Virus record (IMG/VR): IMGVR_UViG_3300031861_000001
Location: 1-64,000 of that record
Origin: a virus
Lineage: Duplodnaviria > Caudoviricetes
DNA length: 64,000 nucleotides
Strand: one strand, 5' to 3'
Below are positions 1 to 8,192 of the stretch, piece after piece. Positions within the stretch are counted from its first letter, which is position 1, and every line of letters starts with the position of its first letter. The translations under genes were made by a program, and so were the position numbers. The notes under the pieces are model-generated. The model ran no database searches and had not been told where the DNA came from. It saw nothing but the letters and a program-made list of their open reading frames with translations.

Positions 1-155
1 TATCCTACCTCATCATCATCTGATCCGAATGCTTGAAATACATCTTTGATTCCTATTGATTGTAAAAATGGGAATTTAGGATCTCTGTAGAACGAATATC
101 GAAACTGTTGCTCTAAAGACACCCTTAATTCTGCTTTTGATTGATCGTTAATCAT
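1..155 (-). CDS. hypothetical protein, runs off the window edge (partial)
   Basis: Not in ORF track. ATG at 155 overlaps TGA of the upstream gene (ATGA); the frame MINDQSKAELRVSLEQQFRYSFYRDPKFPFL... stays open to position 1. Confidence 0.55.
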   Translation of the reverse strand, partial: MINDQSKAELRVSLEQQFRYSFYRDPKFPFLQSIGIKDVFQAFGSDDDEVG

Positions 156-349
156 TTCTTCTTAGCTTTTTTAATTAAACCTTTTGCTTTCTTCTTTGCT
201 TTATGAACCTTCTTTTCTGCTTTTTGTTGAATTTCTTTTGTTTCTTTTTCTACACGATGTCGAGCAGCTGAGGCTTCTTCTTTTGCTGATTCCTTAACAC
301 TACCAAAGAGTTCTTTAACATGATGTTTTATTTTATGAATTATAGACAT
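152..349 (-). CDS. small Lys/Glu-rich hypothetical protein
   Basis: 65 aa ORF tightly packed between neighbours; charged and helical, no recognisable family. Confidence 0.6.
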   Translation of the reverse strand: MSIIHKIKHHVKELFGSVKESAKEEASAARHRVEKETKEIQQKAEKKVHKAKKKAKGLIKKAKKK

Positions 350-352
350 AAT

Positions 353-646
353 CTATACCTTTCGTTTCATTGTGTTTATTATATTTTTATCAGAATATCC
401 GGATATATGGTTTTTATCTGCTTCAAGTAATATTTCTTTTACATCCTTAAATTCAAAGAAAACTCCATGACCCGCTGATTTTAATGGTTCCAACCCGCCA
501 TATTTGTAAGTGCCCCAGAGAGAAAACTCACCTGTCTTTCCTGGAACAATTGTAGTACTATAACCGTTATTATTCATTTCGACAGCCAGAGCCTCTGCCT
601 GTGATTTATATCCTCAAGATGAACAATATTTAATTGTAAAACTCAT
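353..646 (-). CDS. SelW/Rdx-family selenoprotein (CxxU), 97 aa with in-frame UGA
   Basis: ATG at 646 overlaps the TGA of the upstream gene (ATGA) and is in frame with the 74 aa ORF at 577. It reads MSFTIKYCSS-UGA-GYKSQAEALAVEMNNNGYSTTIVPGKTGEFSL, matching the Rdx pattern I-x-Y-C-x-x-U-G-Y...A..LA.E...G..G.F. The UGA is at 616-614. Confidence 0.85.
582..602 (-). promoter_or_regulatory. candidate bacterial SECIS hairpin
   Basis: ACAGGCAGA-GGC-UCUGGCUGU gives 8 pairs with one G.G mismatch and a G-initial apical loop. It begins after exactly 11 nt (GGAUAUAAAUC) downstream of the UGA. Confidence 0.7.
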
Positions 647-897
647 TCTTTGTCCTTTATTTTTGTATCAGGATAAGGCCAAGAATGCTTTAAAGTTTCA
701 AGCTTAGCCAAATATTCTTCCTGTCTCCTATGGTCCTTTAACGAATAGCATCGCAAACTTAGTTCATCCAGATCATCGTTTGTTAAGTAAGGTAGAAAAG
801 AATTAACCGCGCCTAGTATATTTTTATGAGAATACAACATCTCTTTTCCATCAACATACACTCTAATTGTTGCCTTATTGTCTTCCTTCAGTCCCAC
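643..897 (-). CDS. hypothetical protein
   Basis: 84 aa ORF, translationally coupled (ATGA) to the Rdx gene. Confidence 0.6.
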   Translation of the reverse strand: MGLKEDNKATIRVYVDGKEMLYSHKNILGAVNSFLPYLTNDDLDELSLRCYSLKDHRRQEEYLAKLETLKHSWPYPDTKIKDKE

Positions 898-1058
898 AAG
901 TCTTTATCCCAATCCTTACGAAAGTGTTCGTGGTGCTCTTTTTTAGATTTTCCAATTCCAGCACGTTTACGTTTTTCTTCATCCGAAATTGGTACGTACC
1001 TTCTATTATTACCAAAACCTATAACATCATAATCTCTAGGATTGTAAAATTTTGACAT
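888..1058 (-). CDS. small hypothetical protein (56 aa)
   Basis: The likely start is MSKFYNPRDY at 1058, just after the stop of the 163 aa gene. The track's upstream extension overlaps that gene. Confidence 0.55.
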   Translation of the reverse strand: MSKFYNPRDYDVIGFGNNRRYVPISDEEKRKRAGIGKSKKEHHEHFRKDWDKDLWD

Positions 1059-1059
1059 A

Positions 1060-1551
1060 TTATTCCTCTGGATTTTTTTGTGGTATGTTAGATTCATAGT
1101 TCCATTCATAGAAACTGACATCTCCGCCGATTGTGTGTCCGCCCGCATGCTCTCCGTTTTCTTTTCCACCATCGCGATAGTGTTCAGTTATATCTTCACT
1201 CAAAACCATAAACTTTCCTTCTTCTGATTTTCCCTTTACGCCTTCTAATGCATTGTGAACTTCCCTTGAATACACAATCTTATAAGATATTGGTACTCGT
1301 TCTTTATCAATAACCCACACATAAATCCAATTTGGTTCATCAATATAATGCTTGAGATATAAGCCTTGTTTTGGATTCTCAAACTTTGGATATCCCAAGA
1401 TCGCTGTATATGTCTTATATGTTGATGTTACTAATACAAGGAGAAGTGGAATGAACCAAATTAAAAATTTAGGACTCTTTCTCCCCTCTATCAACAGCCA
1501 TAAGCATATGACTGACAGCAGTACCAATCCGAAAATCAACAGTTCGACCAT
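1060..1551 (-). CDS. membrane protein with two N-terminal TM segments, third gene of the Mot/Exb-like module
   Basis: Hydrophobic MVELLIFGLVLLSVICLWLLI and FLIWFIPLLLVLVTSTY followed by a soluble domain; overlaps the stop of the MotB-like gene. Confidence 0.7.
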   Translation of the reverse strand: MVELLIFGLVLLSVICLWLLIEGRKSPKFLIWFIPLLLVLVTSTYKTYTAILGYPKFENPKQGLYLKHYIDEPNWIYVWVIDKERVPISYKIVYSREVHNALEGVKGKSEEGKFMVLSEDITEHYRDGGKENGEHAGGHTIGGDVSFYEWNYESNIPQKNPEE

Positions 1552-2285
1552 TATCGTCTTTCTTCATGTGCTGGATTATTGTCTGAACTAGTTTCATATG
1601 CGGCAGCACCAGAACCTTGATAATTTCCTGTGGCCATCAAAGGAGTTACAAAATCCTTTTTTTCAAATGTAAAAGGTGTAAGAACTGTTCCGTCCTTATC
1701 TAGTCTAAACCTTACAAAAGTTTCTTCCTGTCCTTTACCAAAGAATTTCTTTTCTCCGACCCACATAATTGTATAAGGATTAACTTTATGTAATTCTATT
1801 TTTACTGTTAGTTCTTTTGATTTCTTTTTACGTACGGTGGAGCCCATTTCAATTCTGTTGTCTATGTTTGAATAGTCCCTTTCAGAATAATAATGAGCAT
1901 TGATAATATATTCTCCTGCAATGATTCCTCTAATAGTTATAACTTCCCTATTGATTCTTACAGTTGATACAGTACCATCTGCATTGACTACTGTATCATT
2001 AGCTGAACCCAAATCATCTTTATCCAGATGCATGAAGTTTGCGACAGTTCTTCTAAAACTACAGTTCGCACCTAAAGGATCTTCTATATAAAGATCAATG
2101 TCACCTTTTGCTTCTTTATCCCATTCCATTATAACAACGAATTCTGCATTTCTATCAAAATCTTTTTTCTTTGCCTCTGGTTTAATTAGAAGAAATGCTA
2201 TTATGAAAAGAAACGCAAATCCAACAAGGATGTTGAAAAGCAGATCTGTAAAACCAATGGTGGACTTATATTTTTCATTATTCAT
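1551..2285 (-). CDS. MotB/ExbD-like single-pass protein with YfaP/DUF2135-like periplasmic domain
   Basis: TM helix GFTDLLFNILVGFAFLFIIAFLL carries the MotB/ExbD-type Asp. It is followed by EW...DIDLYIEDP.G...HLDKDDLG...NREVITIRG...GEYIINAHYY, a YfaP-like pattern. Confidence 0.7.
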   Translation of the reverse strand: MNNEKYKSTIGFTDLLFNILVGFAFLFIIAFLLIKPEAKKKDFDRNAEFVVIMEWDKEAKGDIDLYIEDPLGANCSFRRTVANFMHLDKDDLGSANDTVVNADGTVSTVRINREVITIRGIIAGEYIINAHYYSERDYSNIDNRIEMGSTVRKKKSKELTVKIELHKVNPYTIMWVGEKKFFGKGQEETFVRFRLDKDGTVLTPFTFEKKDFVTPLMATGNYQGSGAAAYETSSDNNPAHEERR

Positions 2286-2736
2286 TTAGCGCCACTTCAA
2301 GATTCACTAACTGAACTTTAATGATAAGTGAACATATCAATCCAACCAGCGTTGTCCAAAGTGCTGTACTCATTCCTAGTGCCATGTCTGATAATGCTTG
2401 TTGTAATGTTACTGCATTCGATACATCCACATTTGCGAATGCAGTTCCTAACATTACTAGAAAACCGGTAACTGTTCCTACCATTCCAAGTGCAAGACAT
2501 GATTCTGATATGAACCATCCTACATCACTTTTTTGATCATAATCTTGTTGTATTCCAACCTTATAAGTTTTTGTGCCTATCCAAATCGAAGTGCAACCAA
2601 AAATAAACAGTATAAGATAACTCAGTTTAGTTATATCAGACTCATATAAACTCATATGAATATCGAAATACAGACTAACACTAATTCCTAGTATGATCAA
2701 ACAAAATATTAACCACCATTTCAATACAGACTTCAT
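2278..2736 (-). CDS. MotA/TolQ/ExbB proton-channel family protein
   Basis: About four TM segments; LGMVGTVTGF...GMSTALWTTLVGL signature; strong GGAGAGG RBS upstream. Confidence 0.85.
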   Translation of the reverse strand: MKSVLKWWLIFCLIILGISVSLYFDIHMSLYESDITKLSYLILFIFGCTSIWIGTKTYKVGIQQDYDQKSDVGWFISESCLALGMVGTVTGFLVMLGTAFANVDVSNAVTLQQALSDMALGMSTALWTTLVGLICSLIIKVQLVNLEVALNE

Positions 2737-2754
2737 CAGTTACCCTCTCCTAAT

Positions 2755-2880
2755 TTAAAATACTTCATGTGCTTTTAAAATCGCACCTATAATTCCTATA
2801 ACAAAAGGAATAGATGCAAAATAATATCCATAGGAAACTACGAATATAACAGTTTCTTCAATGTAATCAAATACAGCCAT
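2755..2880 (-). CDS. 41 aa single-pass membrane protein
   Basis: Not in track. MAVFDYIEETVIFVVSYGYYFASIPFVIGIIGAILKAHEVF fills the gap between the lipoprotein and motA-like genes. Confidence 0.55.
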   Translation of the reverse strand: MAVFDYIEETVIFVVSYGYYFASIPFVIGIIGAILKAHEVF

Positions 2881-3172
2881 GAGTCTCGTATCTTACTTGC
2901 GTCCAAAGTTTTCCCTCTTCATCATATTTCATTCGTATCATGTTCCCATGAGAATCACAATAATGAGAATAGATTGAATTGTTGATCTCAAAAAATCCTG
3001 CTGATTGAAGCCCTACTAATTTTTCTCTAGGTAAATACTGCGAAGCAACTACCCATTTAGGCGGATAAGCTTCTTCAGTTGATGGGGCGCAAGAAGTAAG
3101 TAACAAAATGGTAACAATTGTTAATATTATTTGCATTAAATTAAGAATAACTAAATTTAAAATTGTTTTCAT
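2867..3172 (-). CDS. predicted lipoprotein
   Basis: Hydrophobic N-terminus ending in the lipobox LLLTS-C. Confidence 0.65.
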   Translation of the reverse strand: MKTILNLVILNLMQIILTIVTILLLTSCAPSTEEAYPPKWVVASQYLPREKLVGLQSAGFFEINNSIYSHYCDSHGNMIRMKYDEEGKLWTQVRYETHGCI

Positions 3173-3261
3173 TCTTCTCTACATTCTAATAATTGTCTTT
3201 TATTATAATATATTTTGTCTTGGATGTCAAGTATTTTTTTGTTGAATATATCTCTATCCAT
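3169..3261 (-). CDS. possible small ORF (30 aa from ATG; frame open to 3333)
   Basis: MDRDIFNKKILDIQDKIYYNKRQLLECREE ends with an ATGA overlap onto the lipoprotein start. Confidence 0.35.
   Translation of the reverse strand: MDRDIFNKKILDIQDKIYYNKRQLLECREE
3202..3230 (-). promoter_or_regulatory. consensus sigma70 (early) promoter
   Basis: TTGACA-17 nt-TATAAT, upstream of the lipoprotein/motAB-like/selenoprotein genes. Confidence 0.85.
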
Positions 3262-3321
3262 ATTTAGGATGTCTATTATTTGAGCTATTATTGCTTGATG
3301 TCTATCTTTCCCTGCTGGGTT

Positions 3322-3350
3322 TCGGGTGATTAATCATACTAATCACCCGA
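3322..3350. other. perfect 11 bp inverted repeat (hairpin)
   Basis: TCGGGTGATTA-atcatac-TAATCACCCGA, just downstream of the B12 radical SAM stop; no U-tract. Confidence 0.7.
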
Positions 3351-3361
3351 TCCGGGTTGCA

Positions 3362-5164
3362 TCATACAAAAAATCTCTCTGCTCTCCTACCCCACCACAT
3401 ACATTCGCGAGCCCACTTTTCTAAGTTACCATTATAGACTTTGTAAGGGTCTTTCATCTTATTGTATTGATCATTAACTATTGAATATTCAAAACCATAT
3501 TCATCTTTTAAGTAGTCACCTACTTCTCCATAGAAACGGTCTTTTTCTTTAGCAATATGTATAGCGGTTGCTTCTTCATATTCCCAATATATATTAGAAG
3601 CTCCTGGAACTTTACGTCCCCATGGAATCTCTCTATCAAATACCTTCTTTAATAGTCTCATTGTTACTGTATACTCTCTATACAATAATGATCTGTCGTT
3701 GTTTGTAAACCATTCAAATAATCCATTATAAAACTCTCTCATTGATATGTTATGATTATTCTTTAATTCTAAAGCTAATATTCTAAGCCATCCTAAGAAA
3801 TGTAGAGATATCATAAACCACTTCCATCCTGTTGCTTCTAAGTAATCATCAAACGACATATTATTAGAGCCGACTACTACATCATTAACATCTTCTAATA
3901 ATTGGTCTGGTGGATGCTCATGATGGAAAAATGCGGGTGATGTTTGTTTTATTTGTACACCATATTTTTTAAGATATTCGGGATCTCCAAATGGAGTATT
4001 AGGAAGAGCAACCATTACATATATTCCAATATAATTATGATAATTTACATCGTCAATCAATCTATAGAGCCCCTCCTTAAAACTATCTAATGATTCCTCC
4101 GGTAGGCCGAGAATAGTTTCTATATAAGCGGGCATGCCCCTCCATTTTAAATTTGCTAATACCTCTCTTAGATTAGTATTTTCATTAGTTCTTTCGATCG
4201 CTTTTAATGTAAGTGAATTCATCGACTGTAGAGCGATCGTGACACTTTTATTAAGACCAACCTTCCATAAGTCTTCTGCTATATCAAATAAGTATGGTTT
4301 TTTATGTTTAGCCCACGTTATATTAAGTGCATTAGGATAACCAGCTGTTTTAAGTTTATCTATAAGTAAATCAGATATAATCTTATGTTCCTTATACATG
4401 CCGAAATTGTTATCGATAAGGTGAAGATACTCTATCTTTTTATCTGATATCCAATCAATCTCTTTTACTAACTTGCTATAATCTTGTTTAAATATTTTAG
4501 TCCAATGCCTATCACCCACTTCGCAGAATGTACATGTATATGGACAACCGCGTTCTAATTCTACTAAACTTTCCCATGCATATGTGTGATTTTTAATTGC
4601 TATAAGATCATCGAACATTCCATTAAGATATGGACTAGGCATTGAAGAGATATCTTTTATTCTACTATCTAACGGTGTTGTAAAGAAAGGAGTCGTAATT
4701 CCTTTAACAGGTTTTAAATCTTCCTTCCGATGTAATGCTTTCAATACATTCTTAAATACTATCTCGCCTTCATAATGTACTATAACATCAATAAAAGGCC
4801 TGTCTTCTAAAAATTTATCACACCGACCATATTTGGGTATACCTAGTCCGCCATATATGATTACACATTTAGGATTTATTCGTCTTACTTTAGCACACAG
4901 CTTATCACTTACATGAGTATTCCATACAAAATATGAAACACCTATAATATCACATTCTGCTAATTGTTGGGCAGTCTTATCTATATCGAATTCACCATCA
5001 AGCACATAAATCCAATCATGAACATCGAAAGAATAATTATTTGTAATCTCTGTATCAGTCTCACAATAACTCCAGATACAGCCCGTAGAATAAGGCAACT
5101 TAATCTGATTAGAAAATATATGTGATAACTCGACGAAAGCAATACGTTTCTTATTAGAAGTCAT
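3362..5164 (-). CDS. cobalamin-binding radical SAM enzyme (class B methylase-like)
   Basis: N-terminal B12-binding domain (DIIGVSYFVWN...IIYGG) and the motif ERGCPYTCTFC. Confidence 0.9.
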   Translation of the reverse strand: MTSNKKRIAFVELSHIFSNQIKLPYSTGCIWSYCETDTEITNNYSFDVHDWIYVLDGEFDIDKTAQQLAECDIIGVSYFVWNTHVSDKLCAKVRRINPKCVIIYGGLGIPKYGRCDKFLEDRPFIDVIVHYEGEIVFKNVLKALHRKEDLKPVKGITTPFFTTPLDSRIKDISSMPSPYLNGMFDDLIAIKNHTYAWESLVELERGCPYTCTFCEVGDRHWTKIFKQDYSKLVKEIDWISDKKIEYLHLIDNNFGMYKEHKIISDLLIDKLKTAGYPNALNITWAKHKKPYLFDIAEDLWKVGLNKSVTIALQSMNSLTLKAIERTNENTNLREVLANLKWRGMPAYIETILGLPEESLDSFKEGLYRLIDDVNYHNYIGIYVMVALPNTPFGDPEYLKKYGVQIKQTSPAFFHHEHPPDQLLEDVNDVVVGSNNMSFDDYLEATGWKWFMISLHFLGWLRILALELKNNHNISMREFYNGLFEWFTNNDRSLLYREYTVTMRLLKKVFDREIPWGRKVPGASNIYWEYEEATAIHIAKEKDRFYGEVGDYLKDEYGFEYSIVNDQYNKMKDPYKVYNGNLEKWARECMWWGRRAERFFV

Positions 5165-6155
5165 ATTGTTCTAATTTACCTTCTCTATGTAAGTCCAGAG
5201 TCACACAATGGAATCCGCCACCTAACGTCTTTGCGTGTCGTAGTTGTAATGGTATTGAATCTATACCCCACTTTTTTAACTCTTTCATTAGTGGCGTTTG
5301 ATTTCTATCTACAATAACTACTCTTTCATTAATACTTAAAATATTTAATCCTATCGCACTGGATGATATCGCACTGTTTTCAGAGTGTTGGTCTATTATA
5401 TCTGTAAAGAATATCTTATCCCACTTCTTAAATATTTCAGGATAGTTGTCTTTACTACATCTATGCCCGTTTAATAATACGAGGCCTGGTCTTAACGGTA
5501 TTACTGTGCTATCAAAATGTGCTCCTGAATACTGATATGCTAGATGTATAGTATATTCGGGGAATGTGCGCTTTAACCAATCATATCCTTTTTCATTACC
5601 ACTATTACTCACCTGATATAATAAATCTGTACCTAATCTAACGACATTAGGAGCATCGAACATAATTTCTATGTTTTGTAACGTGGGCTTAGATAAATCA
5701 GTAAAACTAAATGACTTATCTAAGTATTGTGGGGTGGGTGCTTGTATCCATTTTCCATAACTATCAATATTATTCAATATGTGTTTATATGCAAATGATT
5801 CATTTATTCTTTCACTCATTACACATGGTGTTTCAATGATAATATCATTTAACACTAAGAATATATCACGTGGACAATAATTCATCCAACCATATACTCT
5901 TTTTTCAGGTCTATATACACGGATATGTAAATCATTTAATGTCTTTGATAGCAGATCTAAATCTTCCTCGGTTTCTTTTATAACACGAGCTGGATATATC
6001 CACGGTTTACATATACTAACTATCTCTGAATCAGATAGATTAGCAAACATAAAGTTTTTCATAGAGGGATTTAGTGGAGGGATCCTTGCGCCTGTTACAT
6101 CTCCAACGATTACTTCTTTAAGAGGATCCCAACCATTATTCGTAGATAAAATCAT
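5154..6155 (-). CDS. amidinotransferase (AGAT/StrB1 family)
   Basis: NGWDPLKEVIVG, NYCPRD, FDAPN, AHFDST and GGGFHCVTLD; the Asp-His-Cys triad is intact. Confidence 0.9.
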   Translation of the reverse strand: MILSTNNGWDPLKEVIVGDVTGARIPPLNPSMKNFMFANLSDSEIVSICKPWIYPARVIKETEEDLDLLSKTLNDLHIRVYRPEKRVYGWMNYCPRDIFLVLNDIIIETPCVMSERINESFAYKHILNNIDSYGKWIQAPTPQYLDKSFSFTDLSKPTLQNIEIMFDAPNVVRLGTDLLYQVSNSGNEKGYDWLKRTFPEYTIHLAYQYSGAHFDSTVIPLRPGLVLLNGHRCSKDNYPEIFKKWDKIFFTDIIDQHSENSAISSSAIGLNILSINERVVIVDRNQTPLMKELKKWGIDSIPLQLRHAKTLGGGFHCVTLDLHREGKLEQYDF

Positions 6156-6894
6156 TATTACTAACTTTTGTTATATGATCTGTAAAATTATTGGATCCAT
6201 TTAGAAAAGCATTTAAGTTATTATATAATATTTCATGATTATATTGGGATAAATGATTTCTCCTATCGTCAACATCTTTAGCTTCCTTCTCTCCTTCAGC
6301 TACATCTGATAAAGAATATGGATACAGTAAAAAATTATCATTATCCGTTAAAGCCAATCGTGACCTGAATAATAACGAAATCTCTTTTAACGTAAGTCCA
6401 TATATAGACGCATGCGGATACGAAATAAAACAGGAAATTGTTTTAATGTTAAATAAGAATGAATTCATCCATAGCATTGATAAATTTTTATAGTTGCTCC
6501 ACAATAACTCATCTCTCATTGTTTTAAACATATAATCTATTTCTAATCTATGTTTATGATAATATTCTTTTTCCTTAACGAGTTTTGAGTTATCAGCAAA
6601 CCAACTTTGATCTGCTACAAAATCCCAATTTATATGAGATATGTGTTGAGGATCTGCATTAGGAAATGCTATTCTATCTTCCCCACTTAATAAGAATATA
6701 ATTATACACTCATCTTTGTAGGGTTCATTCCTTATAAAATCATAATAGTTCTTAATAGAATAGTGAGGGCCGGTTCCAGCTAAGCAATGATTCGTGACTT
6801 CATAGCCTTTAAACATCTCATACCAAGCTGTAGCCTTTTTCTTATTATAGTCAGGATCACCAAAACTATCACCAAAGATTATTATCTTATTCAT
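6136..6894 (-). CDS. SGNH/GDSL-like hydrolase or acyltransferase
   Basis: N-terminal IIIFGDSF and C-terminal RNHLS...HEIL motif. Confidence 0.55.
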   Translation of the reverse strand: MNKIIIFGDSFGDPDYNKKKATAWYEMFKGYEVTNHCLAGTGPHYSIKNYYDFIRNEPYKDECIIIFLLSGEDRIAFPNADPQHISHINWDFVADQSWFADNSKLVKEKEYYHKHRLEIDYMFKTMRDELLWSNYKNLSMLWMNSFLFNIKTISCFISYPHASIYGLTLKEISLLFRSRLALTDNDNFLLYPYSLSDVAEGEKEAKDVDDRRNHLSQYNHEILYNNLNAFLNGSNNFTDHITKVSNNDFIYE

Positions 6895-7598
6895 ATTAAT
6901 GTATAATAATTACCTATTCTATAAAATTCTTTTTGTTCAATTAATTTGCCTCTTTTTTTAATTAGCTTATCTGTTAAAATGCTAACGTCATACTTACTAT
7001 GGGGCAATGCTTTAAAATCTAAAGTCACTCTACTATTTTTTGATCTATTATATACATACCCTCCATGATGATGAATATTGTTAAAATATAACATCTCTCC
7101 ATATTTGTTTGTATACATTTCATCCTCTACAAACAATCCGTTATCTTCATCCATATCTGTAAGAGGCAATACAAAGGTTGTTTCAAATATAGGGTGATAA
7201 AAGGGTGACTCTTGATCTAAATGCCGATTAACTTTTCTTCCATCGATTTCTATAGGATTTTCTACATAGAGCCATTCATATCCAGATGGAAATATCTTAA
7301 TAGAGGGAAGCTCTTGGACTACAATCTTTTCCTCATCAAAAATAGGTTTTAATACTTTTTGTTGAAACTCTTTCCACCTCAATTTAAATTCCCAGCCATT
7401 ATGAACTACTTCTTTAAATAGTTTTTCAATTAGACCATAAAATGTATTATCATCAGGGTCTTGAATACCACCTTTTGTATTATATGGCGAGGGTTTTAAA
7501 TCATGATTTGCATGGATATCTTCTAAAGGTCCTAAACATCCTTCAAACATAAGCTTAAACTGATAATATGCTGCGTTATATTCTATTACATTAATCAT
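6891..7598 (-). CDS. StrG-like / 2OG-Fe(II) dioxygenase-fold protein
   Basis: HLD, FVLPLTD and GEMLYF...HHHGG...N...SRVTLDFK motifs. Confidence 0.55.
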   Translation of the reverse strand: MINVIEYNAAYYQFKLMFEGCLGPLEDIHANHDLKPSPYNTKGGIQDPDDNTFYGLIEKLFKEVVHNGWEFKLRWKEFQQKVLKPIFDEEKIVVQELPSIKIFPSGYEWLYVENPIEIDGRKVNRHLDQESPFYHPIFETTFVLPLTDMDEDNGLFVEDEMYTNKYGEMLYFNNIHHHGGYVYNRSKNSRVTLDFKALPHSKYDVSILTDKLIKKRGKLIEQKEFYRIGNYYTLI

Positions 7599-7956
7599 TT
7601 TTTATCCTACAGATGTGATTACAACAGCCTGGTAAAGTTTTTTCATCTTTCCAATATTCGGGTTTTATATGTTGACGCCAAATTTCTAAAATATCTTTTA
7701 ATTTATTATGCTTTAAATTATTCCAATCTTTGTCCATGCTATCTAATTTTTTATCGAAGTATGTATCATTTAGTTGATGCTCAGCGTGGAGAGAACAGCA
7801 GGGATAAACGGAGAAATCAGATGCAACTTCAACCTCTTTCCATTCTTTATTTTCATGCCATCCTATACAATAAACTAAATCTTCATGATCTTCAGACAAA
7901 TTCCGAGCTGTTTTGTTTATTTCTTTTGGCAAATTTTTATACAGCGGGGTGGACAT
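7591..7956 (-). CDS. stand-alone SPASM/Twitch-like Fe-S domain protein
   Basis: C...VASDFSVYPCC...LPGCCNHIC; start uncertain because of a 40 nt overlap with the upstream gene. Confidence 0.65.
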   Translation of the reverse strand: MSTPLYKNLPKEINKTARNLSEDHEDLVYCIGWHENKEWKEVEVASDFSVYPCCSLHAEHQLNDTYFDKKLDSMDKDWNNLKHNKLKDILEIWRQHIKPEYWKDEKTLPGCCNHICRIKND

Positions 7957-8192
7957 GTTTTATCATCTTTCCAATTTTCTTCATTTAAAACTTTACTAAA
8001 CTCATTGCGTATATTTTCTATAGTATTAGTTCTTAAGTTATTATCAATATGAGAGATACATTCATCTACTTTACCAAATTCTAAATGCTGCAAATATATA
8101 TGACAACATGGCCATATATTCATATCCATATCTATTTCATATTGATCCCATATTTTAAACTTAGTATTATAAAATCCACATTCTATTTGCAT
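7917..8192 (-). CDS. stand-alone SPASM/Twitch-like Fe-S domain protein
   Basis: IEC...IDMDMNIWPCC...CPPRCIKIC. Confidence 0.7.
   Translation of the reverse strand: MQIECGFYNTKFKIWDQYEIDMDMNIWPCCHIYLQHLEFGKVDECISHIDNNLRTNTIENIRNEFSKVLNEENWKDDKTCPPRCIKICQKK

What the first reader, a model, noticed from the sequence alone, without database searches (positions are those of the whole stretch)
1060..2736. Phage-borne MotA/ExbB + MotB/ExbD-like ion motor with a YfaP-type domain and a third membrane partner
Seen: three overlapping genes encode a 4-TM MotA/ExbB protein (GMVGTVTG...STALWTT, conserved Thr ring), a single-pass partner with the channel Asp (FTDLLFNI), and a 2-TM protein. The partner's periplasmic part looks like YfaP/DUF2135, not the OmpA-type peptidoglycan-binding domain of MotB/ZorB. 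Established: MotAB, ExbBD, TolQR and ZorAB are 5:2 ion-driven motors, and ZorAB is an anti-phage sensor. Inference: a distinct phage motor that could exclude superinfecting TonB/Tol-dependent phages, alter PMF, or energise envelope remodelling.
Basis: partly seen in the sequence, partly recalled or inferred. Interest (0 to 1): 0.8.

Follow-up and report, generated by a model that had tools for sequence, protein, structure and literature searches.

The report
Phage mini MotA-type motor trio
A marine T4-like phage carries three overlapping membrane genes that look like a stripped-down proton-driven motor of the flagellar-stator/Ton/Tol kind with two unusual periplasmic partners. The same trio travels as a unit through hundreds of phages, where one partner is sometimes fused to a wall-cutting lysozyme, and no paper found describes it.

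Summary
Three overlapping minus-strand genes sit at 2278-2736 (A), 1551-2285 (B) and 1060-1551 (C).

- **A** is a 152-aa, four-helix MotA/ExbB/TolQ protein that scores above Pfam's cut-off.
- **B** is a single-pass protein whose membrane Asp14 is kept in 234 of 238 relatives.
- **C** is a two-helix protein of no known family.

B's periplasmic part folds as a TerD-like beta-sandwich with a nearly invariant acidic cluster.

The trio is kept in the order A-B-C in 182 of 193 loci; in the rest a member was missing or cut by a contig end. At least 333 IMG/VR contigs encode a B relative, and cultured Rhizobium phages carry the trio. Chromosomal copies form one clade (7 of 301 Burkholderiales genomes) with a longer A and often a fourth gene. 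So this is not a recent host capture.

In 13 phage loci, C is fused to an intact GH24 lysozyme. That places C's end in the periplasm and ties the trio to peptidoglycan.

Best reading: an ion-driven Ton/Tol-like motor that acts on the envelope. Its role in infection is unproven.

This scan has found the same trio before on other DNA. I found no paper on it.

The parts
3202..3230 (-). Sigma-70 consensus promoter-like site (TTGACA, 17 nt, TATAAT; 12 of 12) heading the operon. Probable early promoter.
   Evidence: It is the only 12/12 match in 1-5400, although the total number of promoter-like sites is not above shuffles. The seven TATAAATA late-type boxes in the window all lie from 18526 upwards, several just upstream of structural ORFs and none near the trio. 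Function is inferred, not shown.
2867..3172 (-). 101-aa lipoprotein-like ORF (signal helix 7-25, lipobox LTSC), first gene after the promoter.
   Evidence: Homologues lie near the trio in only 5 of 112 viral loci, so it is an operon neighbour and not a core part.
2755..2880 (-). 41-aa ORF with one hydrophobic helix.
   Evidence: No family and no conservation shown, so coding status is uncertain.
2278..2736 (-). A: minimal 4-TM MotA/ExbB/TolQ-type channel subunit (152 aa), lacking the cytoplasmic domain.
   Evidence: PF01618 at 29.4 bits, above the 22.9 cut-off. Conserved Gly/Thr motifs in TM3 and TM4. Weak, equal matches to solved TolQ, MotA and ExbB over TM3-TM4 only. A Shine-Dalgarno-like AGGAGAGGG lies upstream.
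1551..2285 (-). B: single-pass partner (244 aa) with membrane Asp14, a short linker and a periplasmic TerD/YfaP-like beta-sandwich (about residues 47-206) carrying a nearly invariant acidic cluster.
   Evidence: conservation. (model pLDDT 82). (TerD Z 9.8 and 9.4, next match 6.2). (YfaP, probability 89-92%).
1060..1551 (-). C: 2-TM hairpin protein (163 aa) with an acidic periplasmic part and a conserved C-terminal motif. No known family.
   Evidence: no family. (always follows B). (conserved LGYP, IYxW, PRxY and C-terminal FY...P.K motifs). (lysozyme fusions in relatives).

Best explanation
A, B and C are the subunits of a small ion-driven (most likely proton-driven) inner-membrane motor of the MotA/ExbB/TolQ kind.

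By analogy with solved MotAB, ExbBD and TolQR complexes, several copies of A surround the membrane helices of a B dimer. Ion passage through B's Asp14 and the Thr/Gly faces of A's last two helices drives a conformational or rotary cycle.

The phage A has no cytoplasmic domain, so the work can only be delivered in the membrane or periplasm. It would be delivered through B's metal-binding beta-sandwich, which sits on a linker of about 13 residues just above the membrane. It would also go through C, a two-helix anchored subunit that plays the part TonB or TolA plays for Ton and Tol.

The target is the cell wall layer. In some phages C carries an active-site-intact lysozyme at its periplasmic end.

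In the infected cell the trio, probably made early from a host-type promoter, remodels or helps breach the envelope, or controls when that happens.

Shown: family membership of A, residue conservation, the B fold, strict three-gene linkage, phage-wide spread and the lysozyme fusions. Inferred: stoichiometry, ion coupling, C as transducer, the target and the timing.
For: - **A's family:** A passes Pfam's PF01618 cut-off and keeps the channel-lining Gly/Thr positions in 176-178 of 178 relatives.
- **B's Asp:** the membrane Asp is kept in 234 of 238 relatives, at the cytoplasmic end of the helix as in ExbD/TolR/MotB.
- **Linkage:** the order A-B-C with overlapping stops and starts is kept in 106 of 113 loci and in 76 of 80 further loci; in the 4 other loci of the second set A is cut by a contig end. 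A, B and C are the only genes shared by 112 viral loci; the next commonest neighbour occurs in 28.
- **B's domain:** model pLDDT 82. TerD fold at Z 9.8 and 9.4, well above the next match at 6.2. Homologous to YfaP with a shared acidic cluster. D62, D64, D90, D91, N112 and E114 are kept in at least 97% of relatives and D97 in 95%.
- **Short A:** phage A lacks the roughly 65-residue cytoplasmic insert of the chromosomal A.
- **Lysozyme fusion:** in 13 of 80 viral loci, C is fused in frame to PF00959 lysozyme (E 1e-45 to 1e-50) with the E-x8-D-x5-T triad. Unfused sister proteins end at the junction.
- **Promoter:** a consensus sigma-70 promoter lies upstream and no late box is near.
- **RNA libraries (weak):** fragments 99-100% identical to A, B and C occur in marine RNA-library contigs of three studies. 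This is presence only, not proof of transcription.
Against: - No complex, stoichiometry or ion flux was tested.
- A matches solved TolQ, MotA and ExbB only weakly (E 0.06-0.9) and only over TM3-TM4.
- The window's own C has no lysozyme, and no such lysozyme lies in the 64 kb. The peptidoglycan link therefore rests on a minority clade.
- An early promoter fits poorly with a role in final lysis.
- Chromosomal copies sit among housekeeping genes, so the cellular role is not obviously lytic.
- TerD similarity is by fold only; the sequence profile found no TerD.
- B's short linker gives little reach towards the wall.
Confidence: 0.5

Rival explanations
1. Superinfection-exclusion or defence sensor. 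Like ZorAB, the motor monitors the envelope. When a second phage perturbs the envelope, the motor blocks its entry or DNA injection, protecting the resident phage. On chromosomes it would protect the cell.
For: - Weak matches of A to ZorA models (PADLOC E 2.6e-4; NCBIfam E 1.4e-3).
- Probable early expression, as for T4 exclusion genes (my knowledge).
- Patchy chromosomal distribution: 7 of 301 Burkholderiales genomes.
- B's domain has the TerD fold, and the ter operon is linked in the literature to phage inhibition and colicin resistance (PMC8123226 abstract).
Against: - The ZorA matches cover only the generic channel core and lie far below family cut-offs.
- A is 152 aa with no ZorA tail.
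- No effector gene is linked in 112 viral loci.
- Chromosomal neighbours are housekeeping genes, not defence islands.
- A lysozyme fused to C is not explained.
Confidence: 0.15
2. Regulated proton leak. The A-B channel is a gated pore that collapses the membrane potential at a set time. It would act like a pinholin, releasing or activating membrane-tethered wall-cutting enzymes, with C-lysozyme behaving like a signal-anchor-release endolysin.
For: - Minimal channel with no cytoplasmic output.
- Membrane-anchored C-lysozyme fusions.
- An earlier scan note places a trio behind prophage lysis genes (e1-5346643; not checked here).
- Unplugged MotAB leaks protons and arrests growth (my knowledge).
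Against: - Elaborate, highly conserved periplasmic domains in B and C are unnecessary for a simple leak.
- A probable early promoter rather than a late one.
- Stable chromosomal copies among housekeeping genes argue against a purely lethal function.
Confidence: 0.12
3. Auxiliary energiser for host uptake or envelope maintenance. The phage motor replaces host ExbBD or TolQR when host gene expression stops. This keeps TonB-dependent import or Tol-Pal outer-membrane integrity running until progeny are made.
For: - Same superfamily and the same three-gene logic as ExbB-ExbD-TonB and TolQ-TolR-TolA.
- SbmA/BacA importer genes lie near the trio in 19 of 112 viral loci.
Against: - The window's B has no Pfam match to the ExbD/TolR family, and only 2 of 45 relatives hit PF02472 weakly. 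Its periplasmic fold is a TerD-like sandwich instead.
- C has no TonB/TolA features: no Pfam match and two helices rather than one.
- A matches TolQ and ExbB only at E 0.06-0.35, so cross-talk with host TonB or TolA is unlikely.
- No SbmA is present in this virus record, which is 42% complete.
Confidence: 0.06

Closest known systems
ExbB-ExbD-TonB (Ton) and TolQ-TolR-TolA (Tol-Pal) inner-membrane motors
   Same: - A three-gene module: a MotA/ExbB/TolQ-family channel protein, a single-pass partner with an essential-type membrane Asp near the cytoplasmic face, and a third membrane-anchored periplasmic protein.
- The output is periplasmic.
- A's TM3/TM4 Gly/Thr motifs align with TolQ and ExbB.
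   Different: - A has four helices with MotA-like topology, and in phages no cytoplasmic domain.
- B carries a TerD/YfaP-like beta-sandwich on a very short linker instead of the ExbD/TolR domain.
- C has two helices, no Pro-rich spacer and no TonB_C/TolA_C domain.
- Sequence similarity is marginal (E 0.06-0.35).
MotAB/PomAB flagellar stators
   Same: Four-helix A topology, Asp in the B helix, and the same Pfam family.
   Different: - No torque-generating cytoplasmic domain in A.
- No plug or OmpA-type peptidoglycan-binding domain in B.
- No flagellar genes nearby.
- An obligate third subunit.
ZorAB (Zorya anti-phage system)
   Same: A MotA/MotB-type pair used in phage-host conflict. Weak model matches of A to ZorA.
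   Different: - No long ZorA tail.
- No ZorB peptidoglycan-binding domain.
- No ZorC/D-type effectors linked.
- Here the module is carried mainly by phages.
YfaP (DUF2135) and TerD calcium-binding beta-sandwiches
   Same: B's periplasmic domain shares with YfaP the W-D...D-x-D, L-D-x-D, E and G-x-Y...N-Y-Y positions. It shares the overall fold with TerD (Z 9.4-9.8).
   Different: - YfaP is an exported protein of the alpha-2-macroglobulin operon, without an Asp-bearing anchor helix.
- TerD is cytoplasmic.
- Neither is known as a motor subunit.
- B has an extra insert carrying D-D-x-G...N-D.
Signal-anchor-release (SAR) endolysins with pinholins
   Same: In 13 related loci a GH24 lysozyme is tethered to the inner membrane through C's helices, next to a small ion channel.
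   Different: - The anchor is a conserved two-helix protein with its own domain, not a weakly hydrophobic SAR helix.
- The channel belongs to the MotA family, not a holin.
- The window's C has no lysozyme.

Membership tests
MotA/ExbB/TolQ (PF01618) | Scores above the curated family threshold | tested here: met
   29.4 bits against a cut-off of 22.9 for the window's A. Most close relatives carry PF01618 in precomputed tables.
MotA/ExbB/TolQ (PF01618) | Conserved channel-lining Gly/Thr positions in the last two helices | tested here: met
   G84, G87 and T129 in 178 of 178 relatives, G91 in 177, T128 in 176. These positions align with TolQ and MotA motifs.
MotA/ExbB/TolQ (PF01618) | Pentameric ring around a dimeric partner (5:2) | not testable with these tools
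No structure exists.
ExbD/TolR (PF02472) | Single N-terminal helix with a conserved Asp near the cytoplasmic side | tested here: met
   Asp14 within helix 9-33, kept in 234 of 238 relatives.
ExbD/TolR (PF02472) | ExbD/TolR periplasmic domain, or a match to the family model | tested here: not met
   No PF02472 hit for the window's B. Only 2 of 45 relatives hit weakly, at E 0.005. The fold is a TerD-like sandwich.
MotB/ZorB | OmpA-type peptidoglycan-binding domain | tested here: not met
   No OmpA-family hit in Pfam, NCBIfam or PADLOC. The model is an all-beta sandwich.
Zorya ZorA | Long C-terminal coiled-coil tail and linked ZorC/D effectors | tested here: not met
   A is 152 aa and ends 13 residues after TM4. 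ZorA model scores of 17.6 bits are far below the 500-bit cut-off. No conserved fourth gene in 112 viral loci.
DUF2135 / YfaP (PF09906) | Match to the Pfam model | tested here: not met
   No hit for the window's B. 2 of 45 relatives hit at E 0.014. The model covers only 48 positions.
DUF2135 / YfaP (PF09906) | Homology of the beta-sandwich by profile-profile comparison | tested here: met
   hhalign probability 89.3% against E. coli YfaP and 92.4%, E 5.2e-7, against a YfaP alignment, with shared acidic positions. This shows a remote relative, not a family member: the architecture differs.
TerD (PF02342) | TerD fold with calcium-binding acidic motifs | tested here: inconclusive
   Fold match at Z 9.8 (rmsd 3.8, 129 residues) and Z 9.4 (rmsd 3.0, 123 residues), with the next match at 6.2. 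No sequence-profile hit to TerD chains. Metal binding was not tested.
TonB / TolA | Single anchor helix, extended Pro/Ala-rich spacer, TonB_C/TolA_C domain | tested here: not met
   C has two helices and no Pfam match. The atlas search found no named family.
SAR endolysin | Membrane-tethered muralytic domain | tested here: not met
   The window's C has no lysozyme domain. The domain is present only in 13 related loci.

The most novel reading that the evidence does not exclude
The trio is a new kind of phage envelope-breaching or lysis-control machine. A proton-driven mini-motor would mechanically couple the host's membrane potential to peptidoglycan cleavage. It would do so by positioning, moving or releasing wall-cutting enzymes carried or recruited by subunit C. 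It would be used across marine T4-like and jumbo phages and rhizobiophages, in place of or alongside holin-type timing.
Probability: 0.2. Interest if true: 0.85.

Novelty: new variant of a known kind. Interest (0 to 1): 0.6.

Why it matters
Ion-driven 5:2-type motors are known to power flagella, Ton uptake, Tol-Pal, gliding and Zorya defence. This would be a further branch with new partner domains. It would also be the smallest A subunit of the kind, and it is carried mainly by viruses.

The trio is abundant. There are about 1,300 clusters of B at 50% identity, hundreds of IMG/VR contigs, and very many near-identical marine metagenome copies.

It occurs in cultured Rhizobium phages, so its role can be tested genetically now. 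If it couples membrane energy to cell-wall cutting, it bears on how marine T4-like phages, whose lysis genes are poorly known, open their hosts. The minimal A subunit would also be a compact model for the motor mechanism.

Tried and rejected
- **Complex prediction:** a job with A, B and C, scoring C as partner, returned 'no answer' (score 0.01). This is not evidence either way.
- **Single-sequence fold of B:** useless (pLDDT 37).
- **PHROGs, NCBIfam, PADLOC:** no family for B or C, and only generic weak ZorA/TolQ/MotA hits for A.
- **DNA search of the phage collection:** no match. A's protein search there also found nothing.
- **Genome-contig scans:** the 45-sequence alignment was too diverse to search with, and a single distant B found nothing. 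A tighter alignment worked.
- **Protein atlas for C:** only unnamed clusters and no structure.
- **TerD:** a TerD family search in five carrier genomes found none, so no TerD profile comparison could be made.
- **The look-up of encoding contigs:** Their phage or cellular origin is inferred from the tree only.
- **BFVD fold search:** only weak matches.
- **Literature:** the term 'DUF2135' occurs in no held paper, and no paper on this trio turned up. The 2025 MotAB evolution paper (PMC12505986) mentions DUF appendages on generic ion transporters but not this family or phages.
- **RNA-library contigs:** they show presence only. Uncovered parts mean nothing.
- **SbmA:** not found in this virus record, which is 42% complete.
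Full report
**What is there**

The window is the first 64 kb of a 75,970-bp IMG/VR virus record that CheckV rates 42% complete. It encodes T4-type major head, scaffold and portal proteins, a gp46-like nuclease subunit and tail fibres. Every ORF of 150 aa or more but one, which lies inside a longer minus-strand ORF, is on the minus strand. The capsid protein is about 65% identical to those of cyanophages and of OM43 phage Melnitz, so the host cannot be named.

- A, 2278-2736, 152 aa.
- B, 1551-2285, 244 aa.
- C, 1060-1551, 163 aa.

A and B overlap by 8 nt, and B and C by 1 nt.

A perfect sigma-70 consensus (TTGACA, 17 nt, TATAAT) lies at 3230-3202 on the same strand. It is followed by a 101-aa lipoprotein-like ORF, a 41-aa hydrophobic ORF, a Shine-Dalgarno-like sequence and A. 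The T4-type late box TATAAATA occurs seven times in the window, all from 18526 upwards, several just upstream of structural ORFs and never near the trio. I infer early transcription. This is not shown.

**The three proteins**

*Protein A.*
- It has four hydrophobic segments. The loop charges give MotA-like topology, with both ends in the cytoplasm.
- It passes Pfam's PF01618 threshold, 29.4 against 22.9 bits.
- Only the last two helices align with solved TolQ, MotA and ExbB, all about equally weakly at E 0.06-0.9.
- Across 178 relatives, G84, G87 and T129 are invariant and G91, T128, G132 and Q142 are nearly so. T88 is Thr in 123 and Lys in 54, the latter being the Burkholderiales chromosomal clade.

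*Protein B.*
- It has one helix (residues 9-33 in the model). Asp14 is invariant in 45 sequences of 30-63% identity and present in 234 of 238.
- With a 45-sequence alignment the AlphaFold model reaches pLDDT 82. Most ten-residue blocks of the domain (residues 47-206) average above 90, with a poorly modelled dip at about 131-160.
- The exhaustive structure comparison puts two TerD structures first: 2qz7 at Z 9.8 and 2kxt at Z 9.4. They stand well clear of the next hit at 6.2. Foldseek agrees.
Pfam's short DUF2135 model does not hit the window protein. Profile-profile comparison gives 89% probability against E. coli YfaP and 92.4%, E 5e-7, against a 24-member YfaP alignment.
- The aligned columns include the positions that are nearly invariant in both families: W55, D62, D64, L87-D-x-D90, E114, G124-x-Y126 and N-x-H-Y-Y. 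JGI already labels some members 'YfaP (DUF2135 family)'.
- I read this acidic cluster as a probable metal (calcium) site, by analogy with TerD. This is an inference.

*Protein C.*
- It has two helices separated by a four-residue positive loop, then an acidic soluble part with pI 5.2.
- No library or atlas names it.
- It keeps the LGYP, IYxW and PRxY motifs and a C-terminal FY...P.K motif from phages to bacteria.

**Linkage and spread**

- *Size of the B family.* It is large: 1,321 clusters at 50% identity with E of 0.001 or better. Very many near-identical marine metagenome copies also exist.
- *Cultured phages.* Rhizobium phages RL2RES/P10VF and RHph_N3_19 carry the same three-gene layout, annotated as hypothetical. 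B matches directly, RL2RES C shows the same two-helix layout, and all three products were recovered by iterated profile search.
- *Gene order.* Profile searches over all fetched loci found the order A-B-C in 106 of 113 loci. They found it in 76 of 80 further IMG/VR loci, where the other four have A cut by a contig end.
- *Viral contigs.* At least 333 IMG/VR contigs encode a B relative, some over 300 kb. Among 112 viral loci only A, B and C are shared. The next commonest neighbour occurs in 28.
- *Neighbours.* They are ordinary T4-type replication genes, peptide deformylase, ClpP and, in 19 loci, an SbmA/BacA importer.

**Bacterial copies**

A genome-contig scan gave 189 hits, many on long chromosomal contigs of Burkholderiales and Alphaproteobacteria. 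These are flanked by housekeeping genes: a short-chain dehydrogenase, a PQQ dehydrogenase, cytochrome c and trehalose enzymes.

- *Longer A.* There A is 225-260 aa, with an insert of about 65 residues between helices 2 and 3 and a C-terminal extension.
- *Fourth gene.* A fourth gene with a DUF3108-like match often follows C.
- *Frequency.* The system is rare: 7 of 301 sampled Burkholderiales genomes.
- *Phylogeny.* In trees of B, the chromosomal long-A copies form one side of a single branch, with support 92-93. IMG/VR sequences are scattered through the rest of the tree, and the window sits in a well-supported viral clade.
- *Misbinned contigs.* Four MAG contigs with a short A fall among the viral sequences and are probably misbinned phages.

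The trees are unrooted, so the direction of transfer is open. A recent capture of a host operon is excluded for this window.

**The functional clue**

In 13 of the 80 second-batch viral loci, C is about 300 aa. It is a complete C, including its C-terminal motif, followed in the same frame by a Phage_lysozyme (GH24) domain. The domain scores E 1e-45 to 1e-50 and has the canonical E-x8-D-x5-T triad. Unfused sister proteins stop at the junction.

This fixes C's C-terminus in the periplasm, as the positive-inside rule also suggests, and ties the trio to peptidoglycan.

In the same clade a ClpP-like gene lies 11-49 nt upstream of A. Overall it is immediately adjacent in 17 loci, and one gene away in 8 more. 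Most of these ClpP proteins show no signal peptide; one, in L058, has a lipoprotein signal. The window has neither the lysozyme nor an adjacent ClpP.

**How it most likely works**

A-B is an ion-conducting MotA-type core. The phage A has no cytoplasmic domain, so the output must be periplasmic. It would pass through B's sandwich and the C subunit, as in Ton and Tol, where a third protein carries the force outwards. The lysozyme fusions point to the wall as the target.

I put about 0.75 on the motor core and about 0.35 on a wall-directed role, giving 0.5 for the combined statement.

The rivals are a Zorya-like exclusion sensor, a gated proton leak working with tethered lysozymes, and a stand-in for host ExbBD or TolQR. 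Each explains fewer of the observations; see the Rival explanations section.

Fragments identical to A, B and C occur in marine RNA libraries of three studies. DNA carry-over cannot be excluded.

**Novelty**

I found no paper on the trio. The recent survey of MotAB relatives does not cover it. It is a new variant of a known kind of machine.

This scan has reported the same trio several times on other DNA, including the lysozyme fusion and the ClpP linkage. I reached the fusion independently before reading those notes.

New here, as far as those notes show:
- the TerD-like fold;
- the tested YfaP homology with shared acidic positions;
- the DUF3108-like fourth gene;
- the Thr-to-Lys change in the chromosomal clade.

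Noticed in passing
window 3362-8192 (minus strand): Directly upstream of the operon lies a run of enzyme-like genes. It includes a 600-aa B12-binding radical SAM protein (3362-5164; PF04055 E 2e-12, PF02310 weak), four unassigned ORFs, and two small paralogous Cys-rich proteins (7591-7956 and 7917-8192, with shared CC/HxxC-type motifs). This may be a peptide- or metabolite-modifying cluster carried by the phage.
   Followed up: no
window 3320-3355: An inverted repeat (ATCACCCGA / TCGGGTGAT type) lies between the end of the radical SAM gene and the consensus promoter. It may be a terminator that separates the two units.
   Followed up: no
window 152-349 (minus strand): A 65-aa ORF that is extremely Lys-rich at both ends (KKKAKGLIKKAKKK). 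It could be a DNA- or membrane-binding peptide, or not a gene at all.
   Followed up: no
loci L005-L013, L019-L022 (about 30-80 nt downstream of C): In the window's own clade, one to three tandem 70-78-aa lipoprotein genes with paired Cys residues follow C directly. An SbmA/BacA importer gene lies about 1.8 kb downstream of B in 19 of 112 viral loci. The window instead has a different lipoprotein-like ORF upstream of A.
   Followed up: partly
loci L122, L125-L140 and others: A ClpP-like protease gene sits immediately next to the trio in 17 viral loci, 11-49 nt upstream of A in most, and one gene away in 8 more. It is commonest in the clade whose C is fused to lysozyme. Only one copy (L058) has an export signal.
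   Followed up: partly
loci L045-L113 (Burkholderiales chromosomes): In the chromosomal clade the TM3 Thr of A (T88 in the window protein) is replaced by Lys in 54 of 178 sequences. This is a charged residue at a channel-lining position and might change ion selectivity or gating.
   Followed up: no
G002 (Geminicoccaceae genome), contig 5 at 118977-119495 and 2745581-2746174: This bacterial genome holds two copies of B: one strong (E 1.5e-72) and one divergent (E 1.7e-31).
   Followed up: no
BFVD hit A0A7S5UXE7 (Rhizobium phage RHph_Y65): Rhizobium phages also encode stand-alone proteins annotated as TerD-like, which appear among the weak fold matches of B.
   Followed up: no
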